Source: a virus
Taxonomy: Duplodnaviria > Heunggongvirae > Uroviricota > Caudoviricetes
Strand: one strand, 5' to 3'
Virus record (IMG/VR): IMGVR_UViG_2693429662_000008
DNA: 40,489 nucleotides
The first letter of the stretch is position 1, and each line of letters starts with the position of its first letter. Shown here in pieces: positions 11,605-33,554 of this stretch. The position numbers were made by a program, and so were the translations under genes. Under the pieces are notes generated by a model. It was not told the origin of the DNA. It ran no database searches and was given only the letters and a program-made list of their open reading frames with translations.

Positions 11605-11952
11605 TCAACTCACAGGAATAGTCAGTGACAGGGTTTTGCCGGTGTCCCGGGCCTCGCCGGTCAGCTCAACAATCATCTGACCGTTAAACTGACGCTCGAC
11701 CGTCAGCGAGCTGATGCTGATGCGCGGCTCCCACTTCAGCAGCGCCATATAACAGGCGCACATAATTTGCAGCCTCAGCGCGTCGGTCTGCGGCATATCA
11801 ATCAGGGAGAACAGTAGCGAGCCATAATCGCGGCGCATCACGCGAGATCCAACCGGCGTTCGCAAAATATCGCCACAGCTCTGACGGATGTGATCGGCGT
11901 CAGTGATAGCTCGCCCTGTCTCGCGATTCATGCCGATATATCGGGTTGTCAT
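11605..11952 (-). CDS. W: Baseplate wedge protein W (P2 gpW, gp25-like)
   Basis: 115 aa, same length and position as P2 gpW. Confidence 0.85.
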   Translation of the reverse strand: MTTRYIGMNRETGRAITDADHIRQSCGDILRTPVGSRVMRRDYGSLLFSLIDMPQTDALRLQIMCACYMALLKWEPRISISSLTVERQFNGQMIVELTGEARDTGKTLSLTIPVS

Positions 11953-12590
11953 TTCGTCCCCTCCGTCCAGGCTCCACCTCTTTGCACACCGCCGTGACCG
12001 TGGTCATCCACCACCACGCCATTTGATGAGAGTTTGCCGCCGGTGTGCTCGATATCGCCGCTCATCTTCCCGCCTTTGGTGACCTCGAGCGTGGCGGTCG
12101 TCAGTTTGTTGGTGCAGACAACTTCCGGGGTATCAAGGGTGATGCGGGTCTCGGCTTTCACCGTCACCAGCGGTACCGTCGCGATGATGGAATCCGACGC
12201 CGTAACGTCTGCGGTTTTAATACCGCTCACGGTCAGCGCGCTGGTCTCCGGCTCGTACTCGATAACAGCCCCGTCAGGAAAGGTGATGTGAAAAGCATCA
12301 GCCGACACCGACGGCGCGGGGTGTTCATCCGAAAAAATGCCGGGTAGCACAAAAGCCGTGTCCAGCTCACCACCGACGGCCAGCAGTAAAACCTGCTCAC
12401 CCACAGACGGAGCCCACCAGACACGTGAGCGACCGGCGCGCGCAGTCAGCCACTGAAGCCAGTCGGTAACAATGCCGCCAGTCTGGACGCGACAGCGCCC
12501 GTCATCGAGGCCAACCTCGACAATAACGCCGGTTCGGATCAGATTGCGAAGGAGGCGCTGAATGTCCTGAAGAGTGGATTGTGTTTTCAT
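11949..12590 (-). CDS. V: Baseplate spike/assembly protein V (P2 gpV)
   Basis: 213 aa, MKTQSTLQDIQRLLRNL N-terminus; overlaps the W start. Confidence 0.9.
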   Translation of the reverse strand: MKTQSTLQDIQRLLRNLIRTGVIVEVGLDDGRCRVQTGGIVTDWLQWLTARAGRSRVWWAPSVGEQVLLLAVGGELDTAFVLPGIFSDEHPAPSVSADAFHITFPDGAVIEYEPETSALTVSGIKTADVTASDSIIATVPLVTVKAETRITLDTPEVVCTNKLTTATLEVTKGGKMSGDIEHTGGKLSSNGVVVDDHGHGGVQRGGAWTEGTK

Positions 12591-12675
12591 GCTGGGAAGG
12601 ATGAAGGAAAAACACCTTCAATGTAATTGAGCGGTGTTGTATGCTTTTTAGTACAACTTCAAGAGGATAACCAAA

Positions 12676-13389
12676 TTGGATAACAAGGAATATCAGAGGC
12701 ACTTTGGAATAATAACTGATGAATTACAAAAGCCTTCCGATAAACATTTGAGAGCATTTACGCAGGTTGCTGACATTAGAAAGTTTGAAATTGAGATGTA
12801 TTGGAAAAGAGCTACGTATTTCTGGACCATTATTGCTATTACTTTTACTGGTTATTTTGCTTTAGCCTCCGCAAATAGCTTTCCGTTCAAAAATGCATTT
12901 TCTCTTTTGCTTTCCAGTATGGGATCCGTTTTTACTCTTTCATGGTTTTTGGTAAACAGAGGTAGCAAATACTGGCAGGAAAACTGGGAAAATCACTTAG
13001 ACCTGATGGAAAACGGCATAACTGGGCCGCTCTATAAAACTGTACTCTCACGACCGTCAGTCGAAGCCAAAAAAAACGCACCTCAACTTGCGAGTACTGA
13101 TAAAGATTTTATCGACAAACATATCACCGGCCCCAAAAAAATATCAGCATCCAAAATTAACCAATTAGTTGCATTTTACTTGCTTGGCATATGGTTAATA
13201 TTAGTAATGACAACAATTACTAACATCTTAAAACTATCATTCTGGAGTGAATCCACGATAGAAGTAGTGTTGAGCGTGGGAGTTTTAATTTGGTCAGCAA
13301 TAGCCACTAGTTTAATGTTTTGTAAGTCAGCCACCTATACAGGAATACAGACTTCAGAGGCAAGAAAACGCTCTTCGAATTTGTTATAA
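12676..13389 (+). CDS. Cargo gene: predicted 4-TM inner-membrane protein of unknown function (possible abortive-infection or exclusion effector)
   Basis: 237 aa from a TTG start preceded by AAGAGGA. Four hydrophobic segments (about residues 50-68, 75-92, 164-185, 197-215) and a charged N-terminal region. AT-rich, opposite strand to the late operon, sits in the S-V moron slot. Confidence 0.7.
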   Translation: MDNKEYQRHFGIITDELQKPSDKHLRAFTQVADIRKFEIEMYWKRATYFWTIIAITFTGYFALASANSFPFKNAFSLLLSSMGSVFTLSWFLVNRGSKYWQENWENHLDLMENGITGPLYKTVLSRPSVEAKKNAPQLASTDKDFIDKHITGPKKISASKINQLVAFYLLGIWLILVMTTITNILKLSFWSESTIEVVLSVGVLIWSAIATSLMFCKSATYTGIQTSEARKRSSNLL

Positions 13390-13502
13390 CGTTGGTGATA
13401 CACTAATAAATTCATTTAAAGCCCTCAGTTTTGGGGGCATGTAATCTCTACTTTCTCACGGAAAGAGAGTCCAGGATGTACACCAGCGCTTGACGCGGAA
13501 AG

Positions 13503-13600
13503 CTAGTCACTGGTGGCAATACTGCGGGTGCGACATAGACTACGCAGGAAGCGCACAATATCCGGAAAGTAGGTTGTGTTTTCGTGTGGGAAAGGATGCC
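13503..13600 (-). pseudogene. Relic of a second gene V 5' end (degenerate duplicate of the V start region)
   Basis: Minus-strand sequence CATCCTTTCCCACACGAAAACACAACCTACTTTCCGGATATTGTGCGC aligns with the real V start CATCCTTCCCAGCATGAAAACACAATCCACTCTTCAGGACATTCAGCGC. ATG is mutated to ACG and there is a frameshift; similarity continues for roughly 90 nt by eye. Confidence 0.45.
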
Positions 13601-13657
13601 GCCTTAGAAGATCGGCGGCAATAGAGGTATGCAGTTCTATCTCTGGTAAAATTTTGT

Positions 13658-14734
13658 TTATTTTCGTTTGCCATAAGACTGGGTTAGAATTGGAGTAATA
13701 TCCTTAGTAAAGATATCTAGTCTTTCTTTTTCGGCTGAGAAAACATACTGTCTGGCTTGAATTACATTTTGCCTACTAATTAAGTTTGACACCTTTTCTG
13801 GTTTGCTTAGTGCAACTTTGGCACCCTTGAATATCAACGCTAAGCCCGGTGATATTGTAAAAATACATCCATTATCAAATGAAAAATCATTTTTTAAGAA
13901 AATAAAAGGAAAATCACTTGAAACAATGGCATATCCCTTAGGTGCTGAGTACAAATATACCCTACAACTACTCTCATTGGTGATTGAGGAAAAAGGTAAC
14001 GCCATAAATCTATGCATCTTTCTAAGTAAGTAAAACATTTCCCTCCGCTGTCCGCTGTCCGCATTAACTAGATACGTTCCTCCCTCCTTTAGTATAGATA
14101 ACAAAGACCTCCATTCAGAACGTGGGATTATGCTCGCACCAGAAGGAATGAGATCCTTATTAGTATTCAGTACTTTCTTGATGGTGGTGTTTATATTTTT
14201 TAATTTTGGCATGGAGCCTTTATCAAAAAAATCATCCATACCTTTGTTTCTATAACATAAAAAACGGGCCATGAAAATTGCCATGTTTTTTAAATCGTTG
14301 AAATCAATCTCATGCAAACCACTACATACTATCGAACGTGCGAATTTTTTTTCCGAAAGCTTGCCAAGCAACCAGTGTCTACGCACGAAATAATGACTAC
14401 CTGAAGCATTTTTAAAATGCTCCTTTAATTTATAAAATTGCCACATTGCGTCTACAAAATCAGGGTAACAATCCTCTAGTATTTTAAAACTGTCCTCAAT
14501 AAAGTTATCTCTATCCCCATCAATATAAAGAGTATGCCTTCGCTCTTGACCACAAATTTTTGTGGCATTAAGAAAAGTAATCCTTTCTTTTATTTGCTTT
14601 TTGGTGGCATCTGTTTTCACAAAACCATAAACAGTATCTTTCCCAGTCTTTGGGTCTTCAGATGTTATTTTAAAATGCCTGATATAAGTTGCAGGCAGAT
14701 AATGCTGATAGTTTTGAAAAGTTCCCTTTGACAT
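13658..14734 (-). CDS. Cargo gene: DUF4238-like protein, candidate single-gene anti-phage defence protein
   Basis: 358 aa from the ATG at 14734 (GGAGG 5 nt upstream); the ORF track TTG at 14746 is an alternative. N-terminal motif HYLPATYIRHF resembles the conserved start of DUF4238 proteins as I recall them (not verified by HMM). AT-rich, and starts 13 nt after the gene S stop. Confidence 0.75.
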   Translation of the reverse strand: MSKGTFQNYQHYLPATYIRHFKITSEDPKTGKDTVYGFVKTDATKKQIKERITFLNATKICGQERRHTLYIDGDRDNFIEDSFKILEDCYPDFVDAMWQFYKLKEHFKNASGSHYFVRRHWLLGKLSEKKFARSIVCSGLHEIDFNDLKNMAIFMARFLCYRNKGMDDFFDKGSMPKLKNINTTIKKVLNTNKDLIPSGASIIPRSEWRSLLSILKEGGTYLVNADSGQRREMFYLLRKMHRFMALPFSSITNESSCRVYLYSAPKGYAIVSSDFPFIFLKNDFSFDNGCIFTISPGLALIFKGAKVALSKPEKVSNLISRQNVIQARQYVFSAEKERLDIFTKDITPILTQSYGKRK

Positions 14735-14747
14735 AGTAACCTCCAAT

Positions 14748-15200
14748 TTACCAAGTCATAATTTTTTTAATGATAATATATTCAACCTCTTCAGTTAAAT
14801 CATTATTGAAACCAATGAGTGGTCGAGTGGGGTATTCAATCCGTCTGCTGTTAATGTTTGGGGCATCCTTTAACCCGTACTGATGCACCTTAGCCATACG
14901 CTGTACCTTGCCGGTAAATTCCACGACCGCCGCGTTATTCCCCGCCGTGGCTTTCATAAAGCGACTGGTACGGAGTTTGGCGAACATTTCCCGCTTAACC
15001 CGGCCTTTTTTGGCTTTTACCGGCTGGCGTTTTCGGGCGGCGTAAGGTGTCCCGTCCGGGGCTTTCTGCGTTTTAATCCGGCGCTGTTGACGGGCTCGCA
15101 GGGTCTTCGCGATATCTGCGGCCATTCTGCGACGGGCGGCAGGTGACAGCGCCGCTATCAGCCCCGCGAGCTTATCGTCAAAGGGTTTAAAGTCATTCAT
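14748..15200 (-). CDS. S: Tail completion protein S (P2 gpS)
   Basis: 150 aa, same length as P2 gpS; the 3' end is AT-rich, suggesting the C-terminus was remodelled by the adjacent insertion. Confidence 0.85.
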   Translation of the reverse strand: MNDFKPFDDKLAGLIAALSPAARRRMAADIAKTLRARQQRRIKTQKAPDGTPYAARKRQPVKAKKGRVKREMFAKLRTSRFMKATAGNNAAVVEFTGKVQRMAKVHQYGLKDAPNINSRRIEYPTRPLIGFNNDLTEEVEYIIIKKIMTW

Positions 15201-15660
15201 GCAATCGACTCACAAGCTCACCGTTAACATACAGCTCAACCGGTCGGGTAACGGGTTCCGGCGGCTGCGGCTCTTCTGCCTGTTCGACGTGGAGCTTATC
15301 CCCTGACTCTTTAACGATGGTGCGCTCGGTCAGCATCAGGCTGATACTGACATCAACGCTGTCGTTGTCGTTGATATCGGCAAAATAGGTGAATCCCTTT
15401 TTACGCCCTTCATCGGTCGTCATAATGTCAGCCTGATGGATGCGCAGCCACGCCTGAATCGGAACAAGTAACAGCTCGATATCATCCGTGAAATCGGTCA
15501 CCACCACATTCAGCGTGTACCGGTTCTCAAACGACAGCGACGTCGCCAGCGTCGAGGCCAGATTCCCGTTGTCGATAAAGACACGCATCATATCGGGGTT
15601 TCGCGCCAGCACCGGCACGGCGTCAGTTAAGGCTTTTCGCAGACTCTTCGGCTTGTACAT
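15193..15660 (-). CDS. R: Tail completion protein R (P2 gpR)
   Basis: 155 aa; position between the lysis genes and S. Confidence 0.85.
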   Translation of the reverse strand: MYKPKSLRKALTDAVPVLARNPDMMRVFIDNGNLASTLATSLSFENRYTLNVVVTDFTDDIELLLVPIQAWLRIHQADIMTTDEGRKKGFTYFADINDNDSVDVSISLMLTERTIVKESGDKLHVEQAEEPQPPEPVTRPVELYVNGELVSRLHE

Positions 15661-23929: not shown

Positions 23930-25147
23930 TTAATTAGCTTTATCAAGGCGTCCCCCCACCACCATCCGCTTGTAATTTATTGCGAACAACTTAATTTTTT
24001 CAGGGAACTTTGACGCCAAAATTATTGACTTTCTGTCTACATATGAATAAAAGGGCATTGATATCAAAATAGTTATCATCGAAGTTAAGATAAATGTAAC
24101 AAACGCACCAACGGACGGCGACGCAATGTTTTTGTAAACCCAAAAACCAACTATAGATATAACAAATGGATGAAGCAAGTATATTGAAAATGACAACTTC
24201 CCAATAAACAAGACTACATTTTTGCTCATCCCCCTTAAACATCTCCCATTCACAAAGACAGAAGCAATAATCAAAAAAGAACCAAGCGATATTGTAAACT
24301 CTGGCCATTGTATTAATATACCGCATTGAAACTGAAGGTAGAGGTAAAATTCAACCAGATCTTTATACGCAGTGCTCGCCGGTGCATACCCAACAAGATA
24401 AAGGCCAATAAACAACATAAGAAGCGATACAAACTTTCTTAACCGTCCATTATTTTCACTTATCTCGAAAGTTGATAAAAACACACCAGAAAGGAAAAGC
24501 CCATAATAAATTACATTAATACTACCAGACAAAAACATGCAAACAAATGAAATAAACGACAACCAGCGAAGAATGGTCTTGTTCTCACCAAACAGAGATA
24601 TAAATCCGTATACCAATATAGAACCAAAAAACTCAATACTAATAGTCCACAGAACATAGTTATACTTTATATTACCAAAAAGCATAGCGCCAAATGAAGC
24701 ATCCCATATGGCTGACACTATATTCCCATCAAAACTAAACGCAGTCATTAACGGCATTGATGCAGCGGGGCTATCCTTATCCGGAAAAAAGCCCAACAAC
24801 ATTATAAAATAGCAAATAATCACAGATGCTGCTACGGGAACCCCAAGCCTAATGTATCTCTTCAATGCTGATGCTTGTATATAACGTATTTCGTTATTAT
24901 TTTTTTGGCAACTCAGTGACAAAACCAACCCGCTCAAAACAAAGAATAAGCTAACAGCAGATCCCCCCTTATAGAAAAAAGTAAAAGGGCTATTAAATAA
25001 ATTTTCTTGCCACTTGCTATCAAACATACTGCCAGAATGCACCGAAGGTATAAACATTAAAAATGAATGCGATAAAACGACAGCCATGGCTGCCACACCT
25101 CTTATCCCATCAAAGATTTTTACATTATTTCTCTCATTATCACTCAT
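23930..25147 (-). CDS. Cargo gene: membrane acyltransferase, acyltransferase-3 family (O-antigen/polysaccharide acetyltransferase-like; probable lysogenic conversion gene)
   Basis: 405 aa, about ten hydrophobic helices, N-terminal FDGIRGVAAMAVVLSHS motif typical of acyltransferase-3 (Oac-like) proteins. Strongly AT-rich; sits between cos and the replication region where P2 carries tin/old. Confidence 0.85.
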   Translation of the reverse strand: MSDNERNNVKIFDGIRGVAAMAVVLSHSFLMFIPSVHSGSMFDSKWQENLFNSPFTFFYKGGSAVSLFFVLSGLVLSLSCQKNNNEIRYIQASALKRYIRLGVPVAASVIICYFIMLLGFFPDKDSPAASMPLMTAFSFDGNIVSAIWDASFGAMLFGNIKYNYVLWTISIEFFGSILVYGFISLFGENKTILRWLSFISFVCMFLSGSINVIYYGLFLSGVFLSTFEISENNGRLRKFVSLLMLFIGLYLVGYAPASTAYKDLVEFYLYLQFQCGILIQWPEFTISLGSFLIIASVFVNGRCLRGMSKNVVLFIGKLSFSIYLLHPFVISIVGFWVYKNIASPSVGAFVTFILTSMITILISMPFYSYVDRKSIILASKFPEKIKLFAINYKRMVVGGRLDKAN

Positions 25148-25440
25148 GCAAAAAACCTTTTATAATAAAAAATGTCATTTCGATTAACGTATTGTATTGG
25201 TTATTATTGTGTTATAACTGACAATCAACCTTAAAAAAACGCGGCATTATAGCACCTTAAGCCTGTTGTATGAATATCATTATTGTTTTGACAGGAAGAG
25301 TTCCGTTTACGCCCCACCTAACCTTCGGAGCACTGAGTAGTGCTCCCAATGAGGTTGGAATAAGGGGAGATTCAAAAAATAGCTGACCATTCTATGCAGG
25401 CAACCCAACTACCAGCATACAACTTGTTTTTTCTCGCAAC

Positions 25441-25623
25441 TTACTCAGCCTTTGTTAATCGTTCTTCAGCATGGGTTGCAGAGAAAACCAGTGAAAAGGA
25501 GTTATTTTTCATCAAGTTGCCTCTCACTATTTCTGCAATCAAATTCAATGCGATTTCACGGTCTCTTTCCTTACAAGTCCCTTCAGCCGTTAGACGCGCA
25601 ATCATTTCGACTCGCTCAATCAT
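25441..25623 (-). CDS. Small ORF under a LexA box (position of the 186 tum antirepressor; possibly truncated)
   Basis: 60 aa from the ATG at 25623 (MIERVEMIARLTAEG...), 46 bp downstream of a consensus LexA box. The longer ORF-track start at 25734 would translate the operator itself and is rejected. Function inferred only from position and regulation. Confidence 0.35.
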   Translation of the reverse strand: MIERVEMIARLTAEGTCKERDREIALNLIAEIVRGNLMKNNSFSLVFSATHAEERLTKAE

Positions 25624-25668
25624 AACGTGCTCACTTAATTCTCTATCCACACAACCTCCACAACGAGA

Positions 25669-31797: not shown

Positions 31798-33261
31798 TCA
31801 TTTGCCGAGCATCTCTCTTAAATCTTGAGCCCAATGCGTATCGTCAGATTGGATCGTTCCTTCAACATCAGTAAGCAGTTTTTGCTCAAGAATTGTCTCG
31901 GCATTTCGACTCTGGCTAAAGTATCTTACCGTTTCGGCAAAGTCCCAATTCTCATCTGCAAGCAGGCGCGGCTGGAAAGAATGACAGTAGATTGCAGCTA
32001 TATCTTTACCCATAAAGTCAAAATCAGAAATCAATTCGCAAATTTTCATATCACGTGCAAATTCGATCTGAGGGCCATGCAAGGTTTCATATCCAATATG
32101 AATTATTGTTGATTCTCCAATCGGAGCCTGCTTTACAGCCTGAACAAGTACCCTTTTTATATCTTTTGCCTTTTTATCGACAGACTCATCAGCGAGACAA
32201 ATCCATTTTGCGCAGAAAGGCATTTCTATCTCATCAATGAATACATTTATTGTACTAAGTTCATCATTGCTAAAAGTGCATAACTTTGCGTTGCAAACCA
32301 TTGTATAACTTCCAAACGGGTCATACTGGTCATCTAATAAGGAATTTAATTGAGGAGAAGGATATTTCACATGCCACTTTCTTAAGTGGTTATCCACCCG
32401 TTCCATATCAATTAAGTTAGCCTGAACCAAAATATCATCGCTCTCACATACTGCAATCTTACCTTTCACAAGATGATCAGAGCCGTAAATTTTTGCTACA
32501 GCACCGAGAAACACATCGATACGCGTTTTTACTATTTCAGTTTTGAAAATCACATCAAAAAAAACTGGCTTATGGTATCGAGTAATCAATGGTCGAGCCA
32601 TTTCCCACCGCTTCAACCACTCCGCCCTTTCTTCTTCTGAGTACTGAGTCACCTTTGCTAATCGCTTGCACTCAACATAAAAAATATCAGTGCCTTTAAC
32701 AACTTTGAGGTCTGGTGTTTTATGAGCTCCTGTTTCTGGAATGAACTCAACTTCCCAGCCATTTTTCAAATAGCAGATAGCCACAACCAACTCAAACAAA
32801 ATGGAATCAGGCTGGTTGATTGTCTTAACAAGCAAGTCATTTAATTTGGATTCAATACCTTTGACCTGCTTCAACTTTTCGCTATGTTCACCGATAACTG
32901 CGAAAAAATGCCAAATTCTTGACGACTGAGCTGGCTCATCTACTGTTGGGCGATCAGCCAAAGATTCAACTAAGTACAAATACCATGCAATCCAGTCATC
33001 ATAGAATGCCAGGCGTGCATCTTTCTCATGGAAAGAAACGTCAGATTTTCCTGTGAAAAGGCGCTCCGACATTTCGCGGAAGTAAGCCAAAACCGCCCCA
33101 CGACGCTCAACCCATTTATCTTCACCCATTACATCAATAAACCAACGGTATGCTGTTTTTATCTCTTTGACTAATGGTGCATCATGTCTATGATTGAAGC
33201 GTTCAAAAAATGCAGCATACTCATCTTCAACACTCTGATTTTTGGTATTTTTTTCACCCAT
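31798..33261 (-). CDS. Cargo gene: large protein with a PD-(D/E)xK nuclease motif, candidate defence/abortive-infection nuclease
   Basis: 487 aa from the ATG at 33261 (AGGTGGA upstream; the ORF-track start at 33294 is an alternative). Motif FELVVAICYLKNGWEVEF...TPDLKVVKGTDIFYVECKRL fits the E...PD...(D/E)xK pattern. No P-loop seen. AT-rich; lies between int and the distal att core, convergent with int. Confidence 0.75.
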   Translation of the reverse strand: MGEKNTKNQSVEDEYAAFFERFNHRHDAPLVKEIKTAYRWFIDVMGEDKWVERRGAVLAYFREMSERLFTGKSDVSFHEKDARLAFYDDWIAWYLYLVESLADRPTVDEPAQSSRIWHFFAVIGEHSEKLKQVKGIESKLNDLLVKTINQPDSILFELVVAICYLKNGWEVEFIPETGAHKTPDLKVVKGTDIFYVECKRLAKVTQYSEEERAEWLKRWEMARPLITRYHKPVFFDVIFKTEIVKTRIDVFLGAVAKIYGSDHLVKGKIAVCESDDILVQANLIDMERVDNHLRKWHVKYPSPQLNSLLDDQYDPFGSYTMVCNAKLCTFSNDELSTINVFIDEIEMPFCAKWICLADESVDKKAKDIKRVLVQAVKQAPIGESTIIHIGYETLHGPQIEFARDMKICELISDFDFMGKDIAAIYCHSFQPRLLADENWDFAETVRYFSQSRNAETILEQKLLTDVEGTIQSDDTHWAQDLREMLGK

Positions 33262-33505
33262 CGTGATTCCACCTAGCTTATGCGGTTTATGCATTCAAGA
33301 TTAACTAACTTGCATGTTATCATTTTTGATATCAGGCAAGTGTTAGTCACGCTATAAAGGCTAGGTTGCCGTTTAAAGGCAATATGATAAGTGGCGATAA
33401 AGTGGCGGTAGAAATGGCTGATAATGTCTAATCACTGGCAAACGCTGGCCATTTATGTCAATGATAAATAAAGCAAACTATTGATTTTCGGTTGTTCAGG
33501 TAGGA

Positions 33506-33554
33506 ACTCATAATCGCTTGGTCGCTGGTTCAAGTCCAGCAAGGGCCACCAAAT
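33506..33554. repeat. Prophage attachment core (distal copy, partial tRNA 3' end)
   Basis: Direct repeat of 1605-1653 with one mismatch; sequence upstream of it is unrelated to the tRNA 5' half, so this is a partial tRNA duplicate typical of integration into a tRNA gene. Confidence 0.85.

What the first reader, a model, noticed from the sequence alone, without database searches (positions are those of the whole stretch)
13658..14750. DUF4238-like cargo gene starts 13 nt after the gene S stop with its own Shine-Dalgarno
On the minus strand the S stop TAA (14750..14748) is followed by TTGGAGGTTACT and then the ATG at 14734. The N-terminus HYLPATYIRHF resembles the conserved motif of DUF4238 proteins, a family I recall as a single-gene anti-phage system from P2/P4 hotspots. 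This close spacing suggests the gene can be expressed from the late tail operon as well as from any promoter of its own. The AT-rich 3' end of S suggests the insertion rewrote the S C-terminus.
Basis: partly seen in the sequence, partly recalled or inferred. Interest (0 to 1): 0.7.

Follow-up and report, generated by a model that had tools for sequence, protein, structure and literature searches.

The report
Divergent DUF4238 cargo gene after gpS
A P2/186-type prophage of E. coli carries, in a known variable slot between tail genes S and V, a rare and very divergent DUF4238-family gene. It is probably a stand-alone anti-phage gene, and it arrived together with a replacement end for gene S; this is a tidy but fairly ordinary example of phage accessory cargo.

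Summary
S stops at TAA 14750-14748, then 13 nt (ATTGGAGGTTACT, with GGAGG 5 nt before the start), then ATG 14734 opens a 358-aa ORF (13658-14734, minus strand).

- **Family:** it matches Pfam DUF4238 over the full model but only just (27.8 bits against a cut-off of 27). It does not match PADLOC's HMM for the validated T7-excluding DUF4238 protein.
- **Rarity:** it belongs to a tiny Enterobacterales clade, with 22 representatives among 1.84 billion proteins. dN/dS is 0.10-0.14. The predicted fold has no solved relative.
- **Site:** this is the classical orf30 moron slot of P2-like phages, not the A-Q hotspot of Rousset 2022. Of 53 sister E. coli prophages, 5 carry this cargo, 15 a DUF4062 gene, 31 another gene, 1 nothing and 1 is a partial match.
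- **S C-terminus:** the cargo segment replaces the last ~41 codons of S with an AT-rich, divergent but still gpS-like allele.
- **Other parts:** a decayed V leader and start follow the gene, then a separately acquired RipA/8xMP membrane gene and a fresh P_V promoter.
- **Expression:** no terminator separates S from the cargo, whereas P2 has one there, so late read-through is likely. Homologues on the opposite strand, on plasmids and in a defence island show that the function does not depend on it.

Verdict: new member of a known kind. Defence is inferred, not shown.

The parts
14873..15200 (-). Gene S (tail completion / virion morphogenesis), resident N-terminal 109 codons
   Evidence: PF05069 E 1.3e-33. 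The DNA is 96-97.6% identical to sister E. coli prophages up to 14865-14875. GC 0.576.
14748..14872 (-). Gene S, last ~41 codons plus stop: a divergent AT-rich allele that is part of the cargo segment
   Evidence: GC 0.336 and GC3 0.33. Protein identity to other gpS is 42-45% here against 72-78% upstream. The same allele accompanies the cargo in Serratia, a metagenome contig and two plasmids. It still aligns to the gpS family to the end.
14770..14798 (-). Candidate sigma-70 promoter TTAACT-17-TATCAT inside the S 3' end (inferred lysogenic promoter of the cargo gene)
   Evidence: Consensus scan. The hexamers are kept or improved (TTAACA, TTGAAC) in copies outside phages, where S' is non-coding. 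Evidence is weak: the scan found 4 sites against 6.2 expected by chance.
14735..14747 (-). 13-nt S-cargo spacer containing the Shine-Dalgarno GGAGG (14744-14740)
   Evidence: The same 13-nt junction occurs in L008, and a 19-nt version in Serratia.
13658..14734 (-). DUF4238-like cargo gene, 358 aa
   Evidence: PF14022 27.8 bits. 14 clusters found by the word-indexed searches and 22 representatives in the exhaustive scan. dN/dS 0.10-0.14. AlphaFold2 model pLDDT 80.9. No solved structural relative.
13597..13620 (-). GC-rich hairpin TGCCGCC-N10-GGCGGCA, a relic of the ancestral S-V intergenic region and a candidate (weak) terminator for the cargo and late read-through transcripts
   Evidence: Fold z-score -2.66. 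76% identical to the hairpin just before V in L011. The same hairpin lies between S and V in the empty-site prophage. It has no U-tract, so the terminator scan does not call it.
13537..13598 (-). V' remnant: decayed copy of the V leader and first ~16 codons, with ATG changed to ACG (13585-13583)
   Evidence: 48 of 63 nt identical to window 12603-12541, E 1e-7. Also present, with a stop codon, in Serratia L006.
12676..13389 (+). Second cargo gene, convergent: RipA-family / 8xMP octameric membrane protein, 237 aa, TTG start
   Evidence: PF24838 E 3.6e-36. PGAP name. dN/dS 0.08-0.09. Frameshifted in Serratia while the DUF4238-like gene stays intact.
12638..12655 (-). Late-activator (Ogr/B-type) box TGT-N12-ACA of the P_V promoter
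   Evidence: Sequence. Its centre lies 56.5 nt before the V ATG, against 55.5 nt for the annotated P2 site. There are only 9 such boxes in the 40-kb window.
11949..12590 (-). Gene V (baseplate spike), first gene of the next late operon
   Evidence: PF04717, PF18715 and PF18946. Homology to sister prophages resumes at 12562-12603.

Best explanation
A ~2.26-kb AT-rich accessory ('moron') segment occupies the S-V (orf30) variable slot of an apparently complete 186/P2-family prophage.

Anatomy (shown). Relative to an empty-site sister prophage, everything from codon ~110 of S to the start of V has been replaced. The new segment carries:
- its own gpS-like last ~41 codons;
- 13 nt later, behind a GGAGG, a 358-aa cytoplasmic protein of a small, deeply diverged Enterobacterales clade of DUF4238;
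- a relic of the old S-V intergenic hairpin and of the V start;
- a later-added, convergently oriented RipA/8xMP membrane-protein gene with a fresh P_V promoter.

Expression (inferred). Nothing terminator-like lies between S and the cargo gene, so Ogr/B-activated transcripts of the O late operon should run into it, and ribosomes leaving S can reinitiate. In the lysogen, and in the copies found outside phages, it is more probably driven by a promoter inside the AT-rich S 3' stub. That stub always travels with the gene.

Function (inferred from family and contexts). It is most likely a stand-alone anti-phage / superinfection-exclusion protein, like the T7-excluding DUF4238 protein of P2-like phages.

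Molecular mechanism (speculative). An enzymatic site may be built from the invariant H11-Y12-x-P14, T68, E80, E87 and D274-x-P276. The variable helical middle (about residues 100-250) would then be the specificity or sensing part.
For: Anatomy.

Hotspot and allelic replacement: 53 sister prophages carry four alternative states of the site. Breakpoints fall at 14865-14875 and at 12562-12603. The empty site is S, 68 nt, V. The literature names orf30 as one of three moron regions (PMC6823313 and PMC3091744).

The S 3' allele travels with the cargo. The V' relic and hairpin.

No terminator after S here, against an annotated one in P2.

Real, constrained gene: dN/dS 0.10-0.14.

Family: PF14022, transitive link, a fold-level hit to a protein of the P2-like Stenotrophomonas phage Smp131, and the invariant motif set.

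Autonomy and defence-type contexts: the gene stands alone on IncF plasmids next to pemIK. In Pantoea it lies beside an integrase, TIR-SLATT genes, a second DUF4238 and an SMC-like gene. It shares the S-V slot with a DUF4062 gene. The 8xMP gene is pseudogenised in Serratia while this gene is intact. A DUF4238 protein is a validated single-gene T7 defence (PMC9122126).
Confidence: 0.55

Rival explanations
1. The DUF4238-like protein and the convergent RipA/8xMP membrane protein form one two-gene system. A cytoplasmic sensor or enzyme would work with an octameric membrane effector, or as a toxin/immunity pair.
For: Both genes are intact and strongly constrained. They travel together at ~87-91% identity as one ~2.45-kb unit in the E. 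coli prophage, a metagenome contig, a Klebsiella IncFIB plasmid and a Pantoea plasmid.
Against: All these copies share the same S' and V' stubs, so they count as one ancestral linkage, not independent co-occurrence. A V' relic between the two genes shows they were acquired in separate events. Homologues at 66% identity or less never have an 8xMP neighbour. In Serratia the 8xMP gene is frameshifted while the DUF4238-like gene is intact. Neither protein hits PADLOC.
Confidence: 0.15
2. The gene serves the phage during lytic growth as a true late gene of the O operon, for example against satellites, host defences or competing phages in the same cell. It would not protect the lysogen.
For: It has the same strand as S, a 13-nt spacing and no terminator. 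The same orientation is kept in Serratia and in the S-DUF4062-DUF4238-V phages.
Against: Relatives lie on the opposite strand in P2-like prophages of Edwardsiella and in an IMG/VR contig. Others sit on plasmids and in a chromosomal island without late promoters. None is found in 50,697 sequenced phage isolates.
Confidence: 0.1
3. It is a moron with a non-defence role, such as lysogenic conversion, stress or envelope physiology, or a selfish addiction function. The DUF4238 resemblance would then say nothing about its function.
For: Family membership is marginal and the defence HMM is negative. The P2 hotspots also hold non-defence cargo (PMC9122126). On plasmids it sits beside partition and toxin-antitoxin genes.
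Against: It is placed in a fast-turnover phage slot together with other defence-like cargo, and in a TIR-SLATT/SMC island. The only member of the family with a known phenotype is anti-phage.
Confidence: 0.18

Closest known systems
Rst_DUF4238 / 'DUF4238-Pers' single-gene defence of P2-like prophages (Rousset et al. 2022, PMC9122126)
   Same: It is carried by a P2-family prophage in a variable slot. It is a single cytoplasmic protein assigned to Pfam DUF4238, with the N-terminal H-Y-(L/V)-P motif, and it appears autonomous.
   Different: The locus differs (S-V/orf30 slot, not the cos-proximal A-Q slot). The protein is ~50-70 aa longer, with an expanded helical middle. PADLOC's HMM PDLC03000 gives no hit. 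Only the first ~80-100 residues are clearly shared across the family. No phenotype is known.
P2 orf30 and other cargo of the orf30 moron region (Christie & Calendar review, as cited in PMC6823313; PMC3091744)
   Same: It lies between S and V, has a lower GC than its flanks, is non-essential cargo, and varies between otherwise near-identical phages.
   Different: P2 orf30 is unrelated in sequence and has no Pfam match. It lies on the opposite strand and is separated from S by an annotated terminator. Here the first cargo gene is co-oriented and abuts S.
P2 exclusion genes old, tin and fun(Z)
   Same: These are prophage-borne accessory genes in the moron regions that exclude other phages from the lysogen. 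This is the functional model proposed here.
   Different: There is no sequence relationship, and their mechanisms and loci differ. Exclusion is demonstrated for them and only inferred here.
Alternative cargo of the same slot in sister prophages (DUF4062 protein; 361-aa hypothetical)
   Same: They occupy the same slot and show the same pattern of a cargo-linked, lower-GC S 3' end and their own P_V region.
   Different: The proteins are unrelated. The 361-aa gene is on the opposite strand, and DUF4062 starts 38 nt after S.

Membership tests
Pfam DUF4238 (PF14022) | Whole-protein score at or above the gathering threshold (27 bits) | tested here: met
   27.8 bits, E 2.1e-6. This is only 0.8 bits above the cut-off. 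PGAP annotates the identical protein as 'hypothetical protein' in three genomes and as 'DUF4238 domain-containing protein' in two.
Pfam DUF4238 (PF14022) | Match spans the whole domain, not only the N-terminal motif | tested here: met
   Residues 9-333 align to model positions 1-277 of 281.
Pfam DUF4238 (PF14022) | N-terminal H-Y-(L/V)-P...F motif and conserved acidic positions | tested here: met
   H11, P14, F21, T68, E80 and E87 are invariant. Y12, D274 and P276 are at least 90% conserved across 64 sequences that include canonical members.
Pfam DUF4238 (PF14022) | Homology to canonical members by independent profile methods | tested here: inconclusive
   hhalign of this clade against a 287-aa canonical clade gives probability 5.4% and E 0.007, colinear over 268 columns. 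The transitive link is good: P0021 hits the clade profile at 2.5e-20 and PF14022 at 62.7 bits over its full length.
Rst_DUF4238 defence system (PADLOC DUF4238-Pers, PDLC03000) | Match to the system's HMM | tested here: not met
   No hit at E <= 1 for the window protein or for its 41-66% identical relatives. Only distant relatives hit weakly, over their first 80 residues.
Rst_DUF4238 defence system (PADLOC DUF4238-Pers, PDLC03000) | Works as a single gene | tested here: inconclusive
   Context supports autonomy: the gene stands alone on IncF plasmids, and the neighbouring 8xMP gene is pseudogenised in Serratia. Function itself was not tested.
Rst_DUF4238 defence system (PADLOC DUF4238-Pers, PDLC03000) | Protects against phage (T7) when expressed in E. 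coli | not testable with these tools
   Needs cloning and plaque assays.
Rst_DUF4238 defence system (PADLOC DUF4238-Pers, PDLC03000) | Located in the cos-proximal A-Q (TO) hotspot | tested here: not met
   The gene lies between S and V. In this prophage the A-Q slot holds an acyltransferase gene and a DinI pseudogene.
P2-family moron of the orf30 (S-V) region | Lies between S and V, deviates in composition, and varies among near-identical phages | tested here: met
   GC ~0.35 against ~0.58 in the flanks. The 53 sister prophages show four allelic states, one of them empty.
Member of the O late operon (co-transcribed with S) | Same strand, with no terminator or promoter gap between S and the gene | tested here: met
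   13-nt gap, and no terminator-like site in 12400-15300. P2 has a terminator at the equivalent place.
Member of the O late operon (co-transcribed with S) | A transcript spanning the S-cargo junction after induction | not testable with these tools
   Needs RT-PCR or RNA-seq.
gpS / Phage_tail_S (PF05069), for the chimeric S | Full-length family match including the C-terminus | tested here: met
   Residues 3-146 align to model positions 2-146 of 148, E 1.3e-33. Y123, R126, G130 and F131 are invariant.

The most novel reading that the evidence does not exclude
The DUF4238-like protein and the RipA-family octameric membrane protein act together as a compact two-gene exclusion module. A cytoplasmic sensor or enzyme would be paired with a membrane or LPS-directed effector. 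The module, still flanked by promoter-bearing stubs of S and V, shuttles as a ~2.45-kb unit between P2-like prophages and plasmids of Escherichia, Klebsiella and Pantoea. The near-coincidence of its IS-truncated left end (~14872) with the prophage's recombination breakpoint (14865-14875) would then mean that the prophage picked the module up from such a plasmid-borne copy.
Probability: 0.12. Interest if true: 0.6.

Novelty: new member of a known kind. Interest (0 to 1): 0.35.

Why it matters
If the gene is anti-phage, it adds a deeply divergent DUF4238 branch that is invisible to PADLOC. It also shows that the third P2 moron slot (S-V) is a defence-type hotspot like the A-Q slot, with at least three alternative cargos in one E. 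coli prophage lineage.

The cargo brings its own last 41 codons of an essential tail gene and its own P_V promoter. This illustrates how cassettes are swapped by recombination inside the flanking structural genes, producing chimeric gpS proteins.

DUF4238 has no known mechanism and no solved structural relative. The short list of invariant residues and the variable helical middle give concrete mutagenesis targets.

Tried and rejected
- NCBIfam and PHROGs gave nothing useful for the cargo protein.
- Sequence search of the PDB gave only chance hits.
- The first AlphaFold2 run, with the 11-sequence clade alignment, was unusable (pLDDT 42).
- P2 orf30 is not related to the 8xMP protein.
- An apparent S 3' remnant upstream of the gene in L011 (FIVIESLMKR*) was not supported by tblastn. 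Only a 43-nt nucleotide extension remains, so it is treated as unproven.
- Rfam found nothing in the cargo region.
- A pattern scan of GTDB representative genomes found no relative.
- tblastn against 50,697 phage records found none.
- Literature searches for '8xMP' and for an octameric RipA in defence were unproductive.
- The terminator scan does not call the 13597-13620 hairpin, so its terminator role is only inferred.

Full report
**1. The observation**

On the minus strand, S (15200-14748; PF05069, E 1.3e-33) ends ...ATG ACT TGG TAA at 14750-14748. The next 13 nt are ATTGGAGGTTACT, and ATG 14734 opens a 358-codon ORF that ends at 13658. GGAGG lies at 14744-14740, 5 nt from the ATG. PGAP calls the same start in identical E. 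coli chromosomes. All homologues begin MS(K/N)G(S/T)FQxYQHYLP. GC falls from ~0.58 to ~0.35, and the fall begins inside S: 0.576 for 15200-14873 and 0.336 for 14872-14748. Only the operon name needs correcting, because S closes the O late operon and V opens the next one (P2 annotation).

**2. Where this is**

The window is a seemingly complete 186/P2-family prophage, from ogr through D...FI, G, H, I, J, W, V, S, R, lysis genes, X, L, M, N, O, P, Q and A to cI and int. It sits next to a tRNA(CAT) gene in E. coli and is 100% identical in 5 of 5,426 complete genomes.

The S-V interval is the 'orf30 region', one of the three classical moron regions of P2-like phages (PMC6823313 and PMC3091744). 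It is not the A-Q (TO) hotspot in which Rousset et al. found the T7-excluding DUF4238 protein (PMC9122126).

**3. The slot is a live hotspot in this lineage**

Fifty-three complete E. coli genomes carry sister prophages whose flanks are at least 90% identical. Their S-V sites fall into these states:

| State of the S-V site | Genomes |
|---|---|
| This cargo (DUF4238-like plus 8xMP) | 5 |
| DUF4062 gene, same strand, 38 nt after S | 15 |
| Unrelated 361-aa gene, opposite strand | 31 |
| Empty (S, 68 nt, V) | 1 |
| Partial match | 1 |

These states were read. Homology between the window and all of these sister prophages stops at 14865-14875 (codon ~110-112 of S) and resumes at 12562-12603, at the start of V. 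The exchangeable unit therefore includes the last ~41 codons of S, the cargo, and the P_V promoter.

**4. The S C-terminus**

Identity of the window's gpS to other gpS proteins drops sharply across the breakpoint:

| Part of gpS | 186 / Klebsiella / Erwinia | Serratia cargo-bearing relative |
|---|---|---|
| N-terminal part | 72-78% | 90-91% |
| C-terminal part | 42-45% | 64% |

S 3' ends in phages without this cargo have ordinary GC: 0.51 in the empty site, 0.56 in 186 and 0.51 in P2. Yet the C-terminus still aligns to the family to its end, with Y123, R126, G130-F131 and the hydrophobic III-K tail. It was replaced by a divergent allele that travels with the cargo. It was not overwritten with foreign sequence.

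**5. Internal anatomy of the cargo segment**

- After the DUF4238-like stop comes a 7-bp GC hairpin (13620-13597; fold z-score -2.66). It is 76% identical to the hairpin that directly precedes V in a relative (L011). The same hairpin lies between S and V in the empty site.
- Next, 13598-13537 is 76% identical (48 of 63 nt, E 1e-7) to this phage's own V leader and first codons, with the ATG mutated to ACG. Serratia has the same relic, with a stop codon.
- Then comes the convergent RipA/8xMP membrane-protein gene (12676-13389; PF24838, E 3.6e-36).
- Then a perfect TGT-N12-ACA box (12655-12638) is centred 56.5 nt before the V ATG. The annotated P2 activator site is centred 55.5 nt before the V ATG, which is also the transcription start.

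The history these parts suggest is S-[DUF4238-like]-P_V-V first, with 8xMP and a fresh P_V added later by recombination in the V 5' end. This reconstruction is inferred from the relics.

**6. The protein**

*Family assignment.* Pfam DUF4238 scores 27.8 bits against a gathering score of 27, over model positions 1-277 of 281. PADLOC, NCBIfam and PHROGs give nothing. PADLOC does contain the validated model (DUF4238-Pers), and only distant relatives touch it, with their first 80 residues.

*Rarity.* The word-indexed searches found 14 clusters. An exhaustive HMM scan of 1.84 billion representatives found 22 hits at E <= 1e-3. No relative was found in 50,697 phage records, 21 in plasmids and one in IMG/VR.

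*Link to the canonical family.* Intermediates tie the clade to canonical DUF4238, although direct profile-profile comparison with a 287-aa canonical clade is weak.

*Selection and conserved residues.* dN/dS is 0.10-0.14. Invariant residues across 64 sequences are H11, P14, F21, T68, E80 and E87, with Y12, D274 and P276 at 90% or more.

**7. Contexts of homologues**

| Identity | Context |
|---|---|
| 87-88% | Same two genes with the same S' (from about residue 107-110) and V' (residues 1-57) stubs, outside phages: a metagenome contig, a Klebsiella quasipneumoniae IncFIB plasmid and a Pantoea ananatis plasmid. All share one identical upstream junction to a transposase-like fragment |
| 77% | Serratia, degraded P2-like prophages: S, 19 nt, the gene, and a frameshifted 8xMP |
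| 66% | IncF plasmids of E. coli, E. albertii and E. marmotae: the gene alone, between parM/stbB and pemIK |
| 57% | P2-like phages: S-DUF4062-gene-V, same strand |
| 51% | Pantoea island with an integrase, TIR-SLATT, a second DUF4238 and an SMC-like gene |
| 41% | Edwardsiella and IMG/VR P2-like prophages: between V and S, on the opposite strand |

The gene is therefore autonomous. The 8xMP partnership reflects one ancestral linkage, and co-orientation with S is not conserved.

**8. Expression**

No terminator-like site lies between S and the gene, whereas P2 has one there. Late read-through and translational reinitiation are therefore expected. This is inferred.

A sigma-70-like TTAACT-17-TATCAT (14798-14770) lies in the S 3' stub. 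The hexamers persist, or move closer to consensus, in non-phage copies where S' is no longer coding. That fits a lysogenic promoter, but the evidence is weak because the scan found 4 matches against 6.2 expected by chance.

**9. Verdict**

This is a real, constrained, rare and very divergent DUF4238-family moron in a known variable slot, most likely a stand-alone anti-phage gene. It is a new member of a known kind. Its mechanism is unknown and its function is inferred.

Noticed in passing
window 12676-13389 (+): The second cargo gene encodes a RipA-family / 8xMP 'octameric membrane protein' (PF24838, E 3.6e-36; TTG start behind AAGAGGA). Francisella RipA is linked genetically to LpxA and lipid A synthesis (PMC4322802). 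A prophage copy might therefore alter the envelope or a phage receptor. dN/dS is 0.08-0.09. PADLOC gives no hit.
   Followed up: partly
window 13537-13620 (-): A relic of the ancestral S-V intergenic hairpin plus a decayed V start (ATG changed to ACG at 13585-13583) lies between the two cargo genes. It is a footprint of stepwise cassette stacking.
   Followed up: yes
window ~14865-14880; L008 / L024 / L025 ~4855-4870: The left end of the plasmid-borne copy of the module is a junction to a transposase-like fragment (...FYLLVAIDRTSNERTSW*). It falls within ~10 nt of the left recombination breakpoint seen between this prophage and its sisters. Either this is coincidence, or it is a hint that the prophage acquired the module from an IS-truncated copy. 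The question is unresolved.
   Followed up: partly
L020 5916-7001 (-); L021 5966-7309 (+); L023 1210-1279: Sister prophages (~96% identical flanks) carry other states of the S-V slot. Thirty-one genomes have a 361-aa protein with no Pfam or PADLOC match, 15 have a 447-aa DUF4062 protein, and one has an empty 68-nt site. Each cargo comes with its own lower-GC S 3' end.
   Followed up: partly
L014 1-11092: A Pantoea deleyi island next to an integrase holds two different DUF4238 proteins (363 aa and 287 aa, convergent), a ThsB-TIR plus SLATT pair, a TPR protein and a large SMC-like protein. It looks like a defence island.
   Followed up: no
window ~23930-25650 (A-Q / TO region): The classical cos-proximal hotspot of this prophage holds an acyltransferase-family gene and a truncated DinI-like pseudogene (RefSeq annotation of the identical locus), not a recognised defence system.
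   Followed up: no
window 1575-1650 (+) and ~33447-33551: A tRNA with anticodon CAT (annotated tRNA-Ile) lies next to the ogr end of the prophage. RefSeq annotates a 105-nt 'tRNA-OTHER' beyond the integrase end, but neither ARAGORN nor Rfam calls it. It may be an attachment-site tRNA fragment.
   Followed up: no
window 31798-33261 (-): A 487-aa hypothetical protein gene lies directly outside the integrase (RefSeq annotation). It could be further cargo at the prophage end.
   Followed up: no
L006 / L007 (Serratia marcescens): In these heavily deleted P2-like prophage remnants the DUF4238-like gene stays intact (dN/dS 0.10) while the 8xMP gene and the V' relic carry frameshifts or stops. L006 also has a reverse transcriptase plus an AAA_15/SMC ATPase next to the remnant portal gene.
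   Followed up: partly
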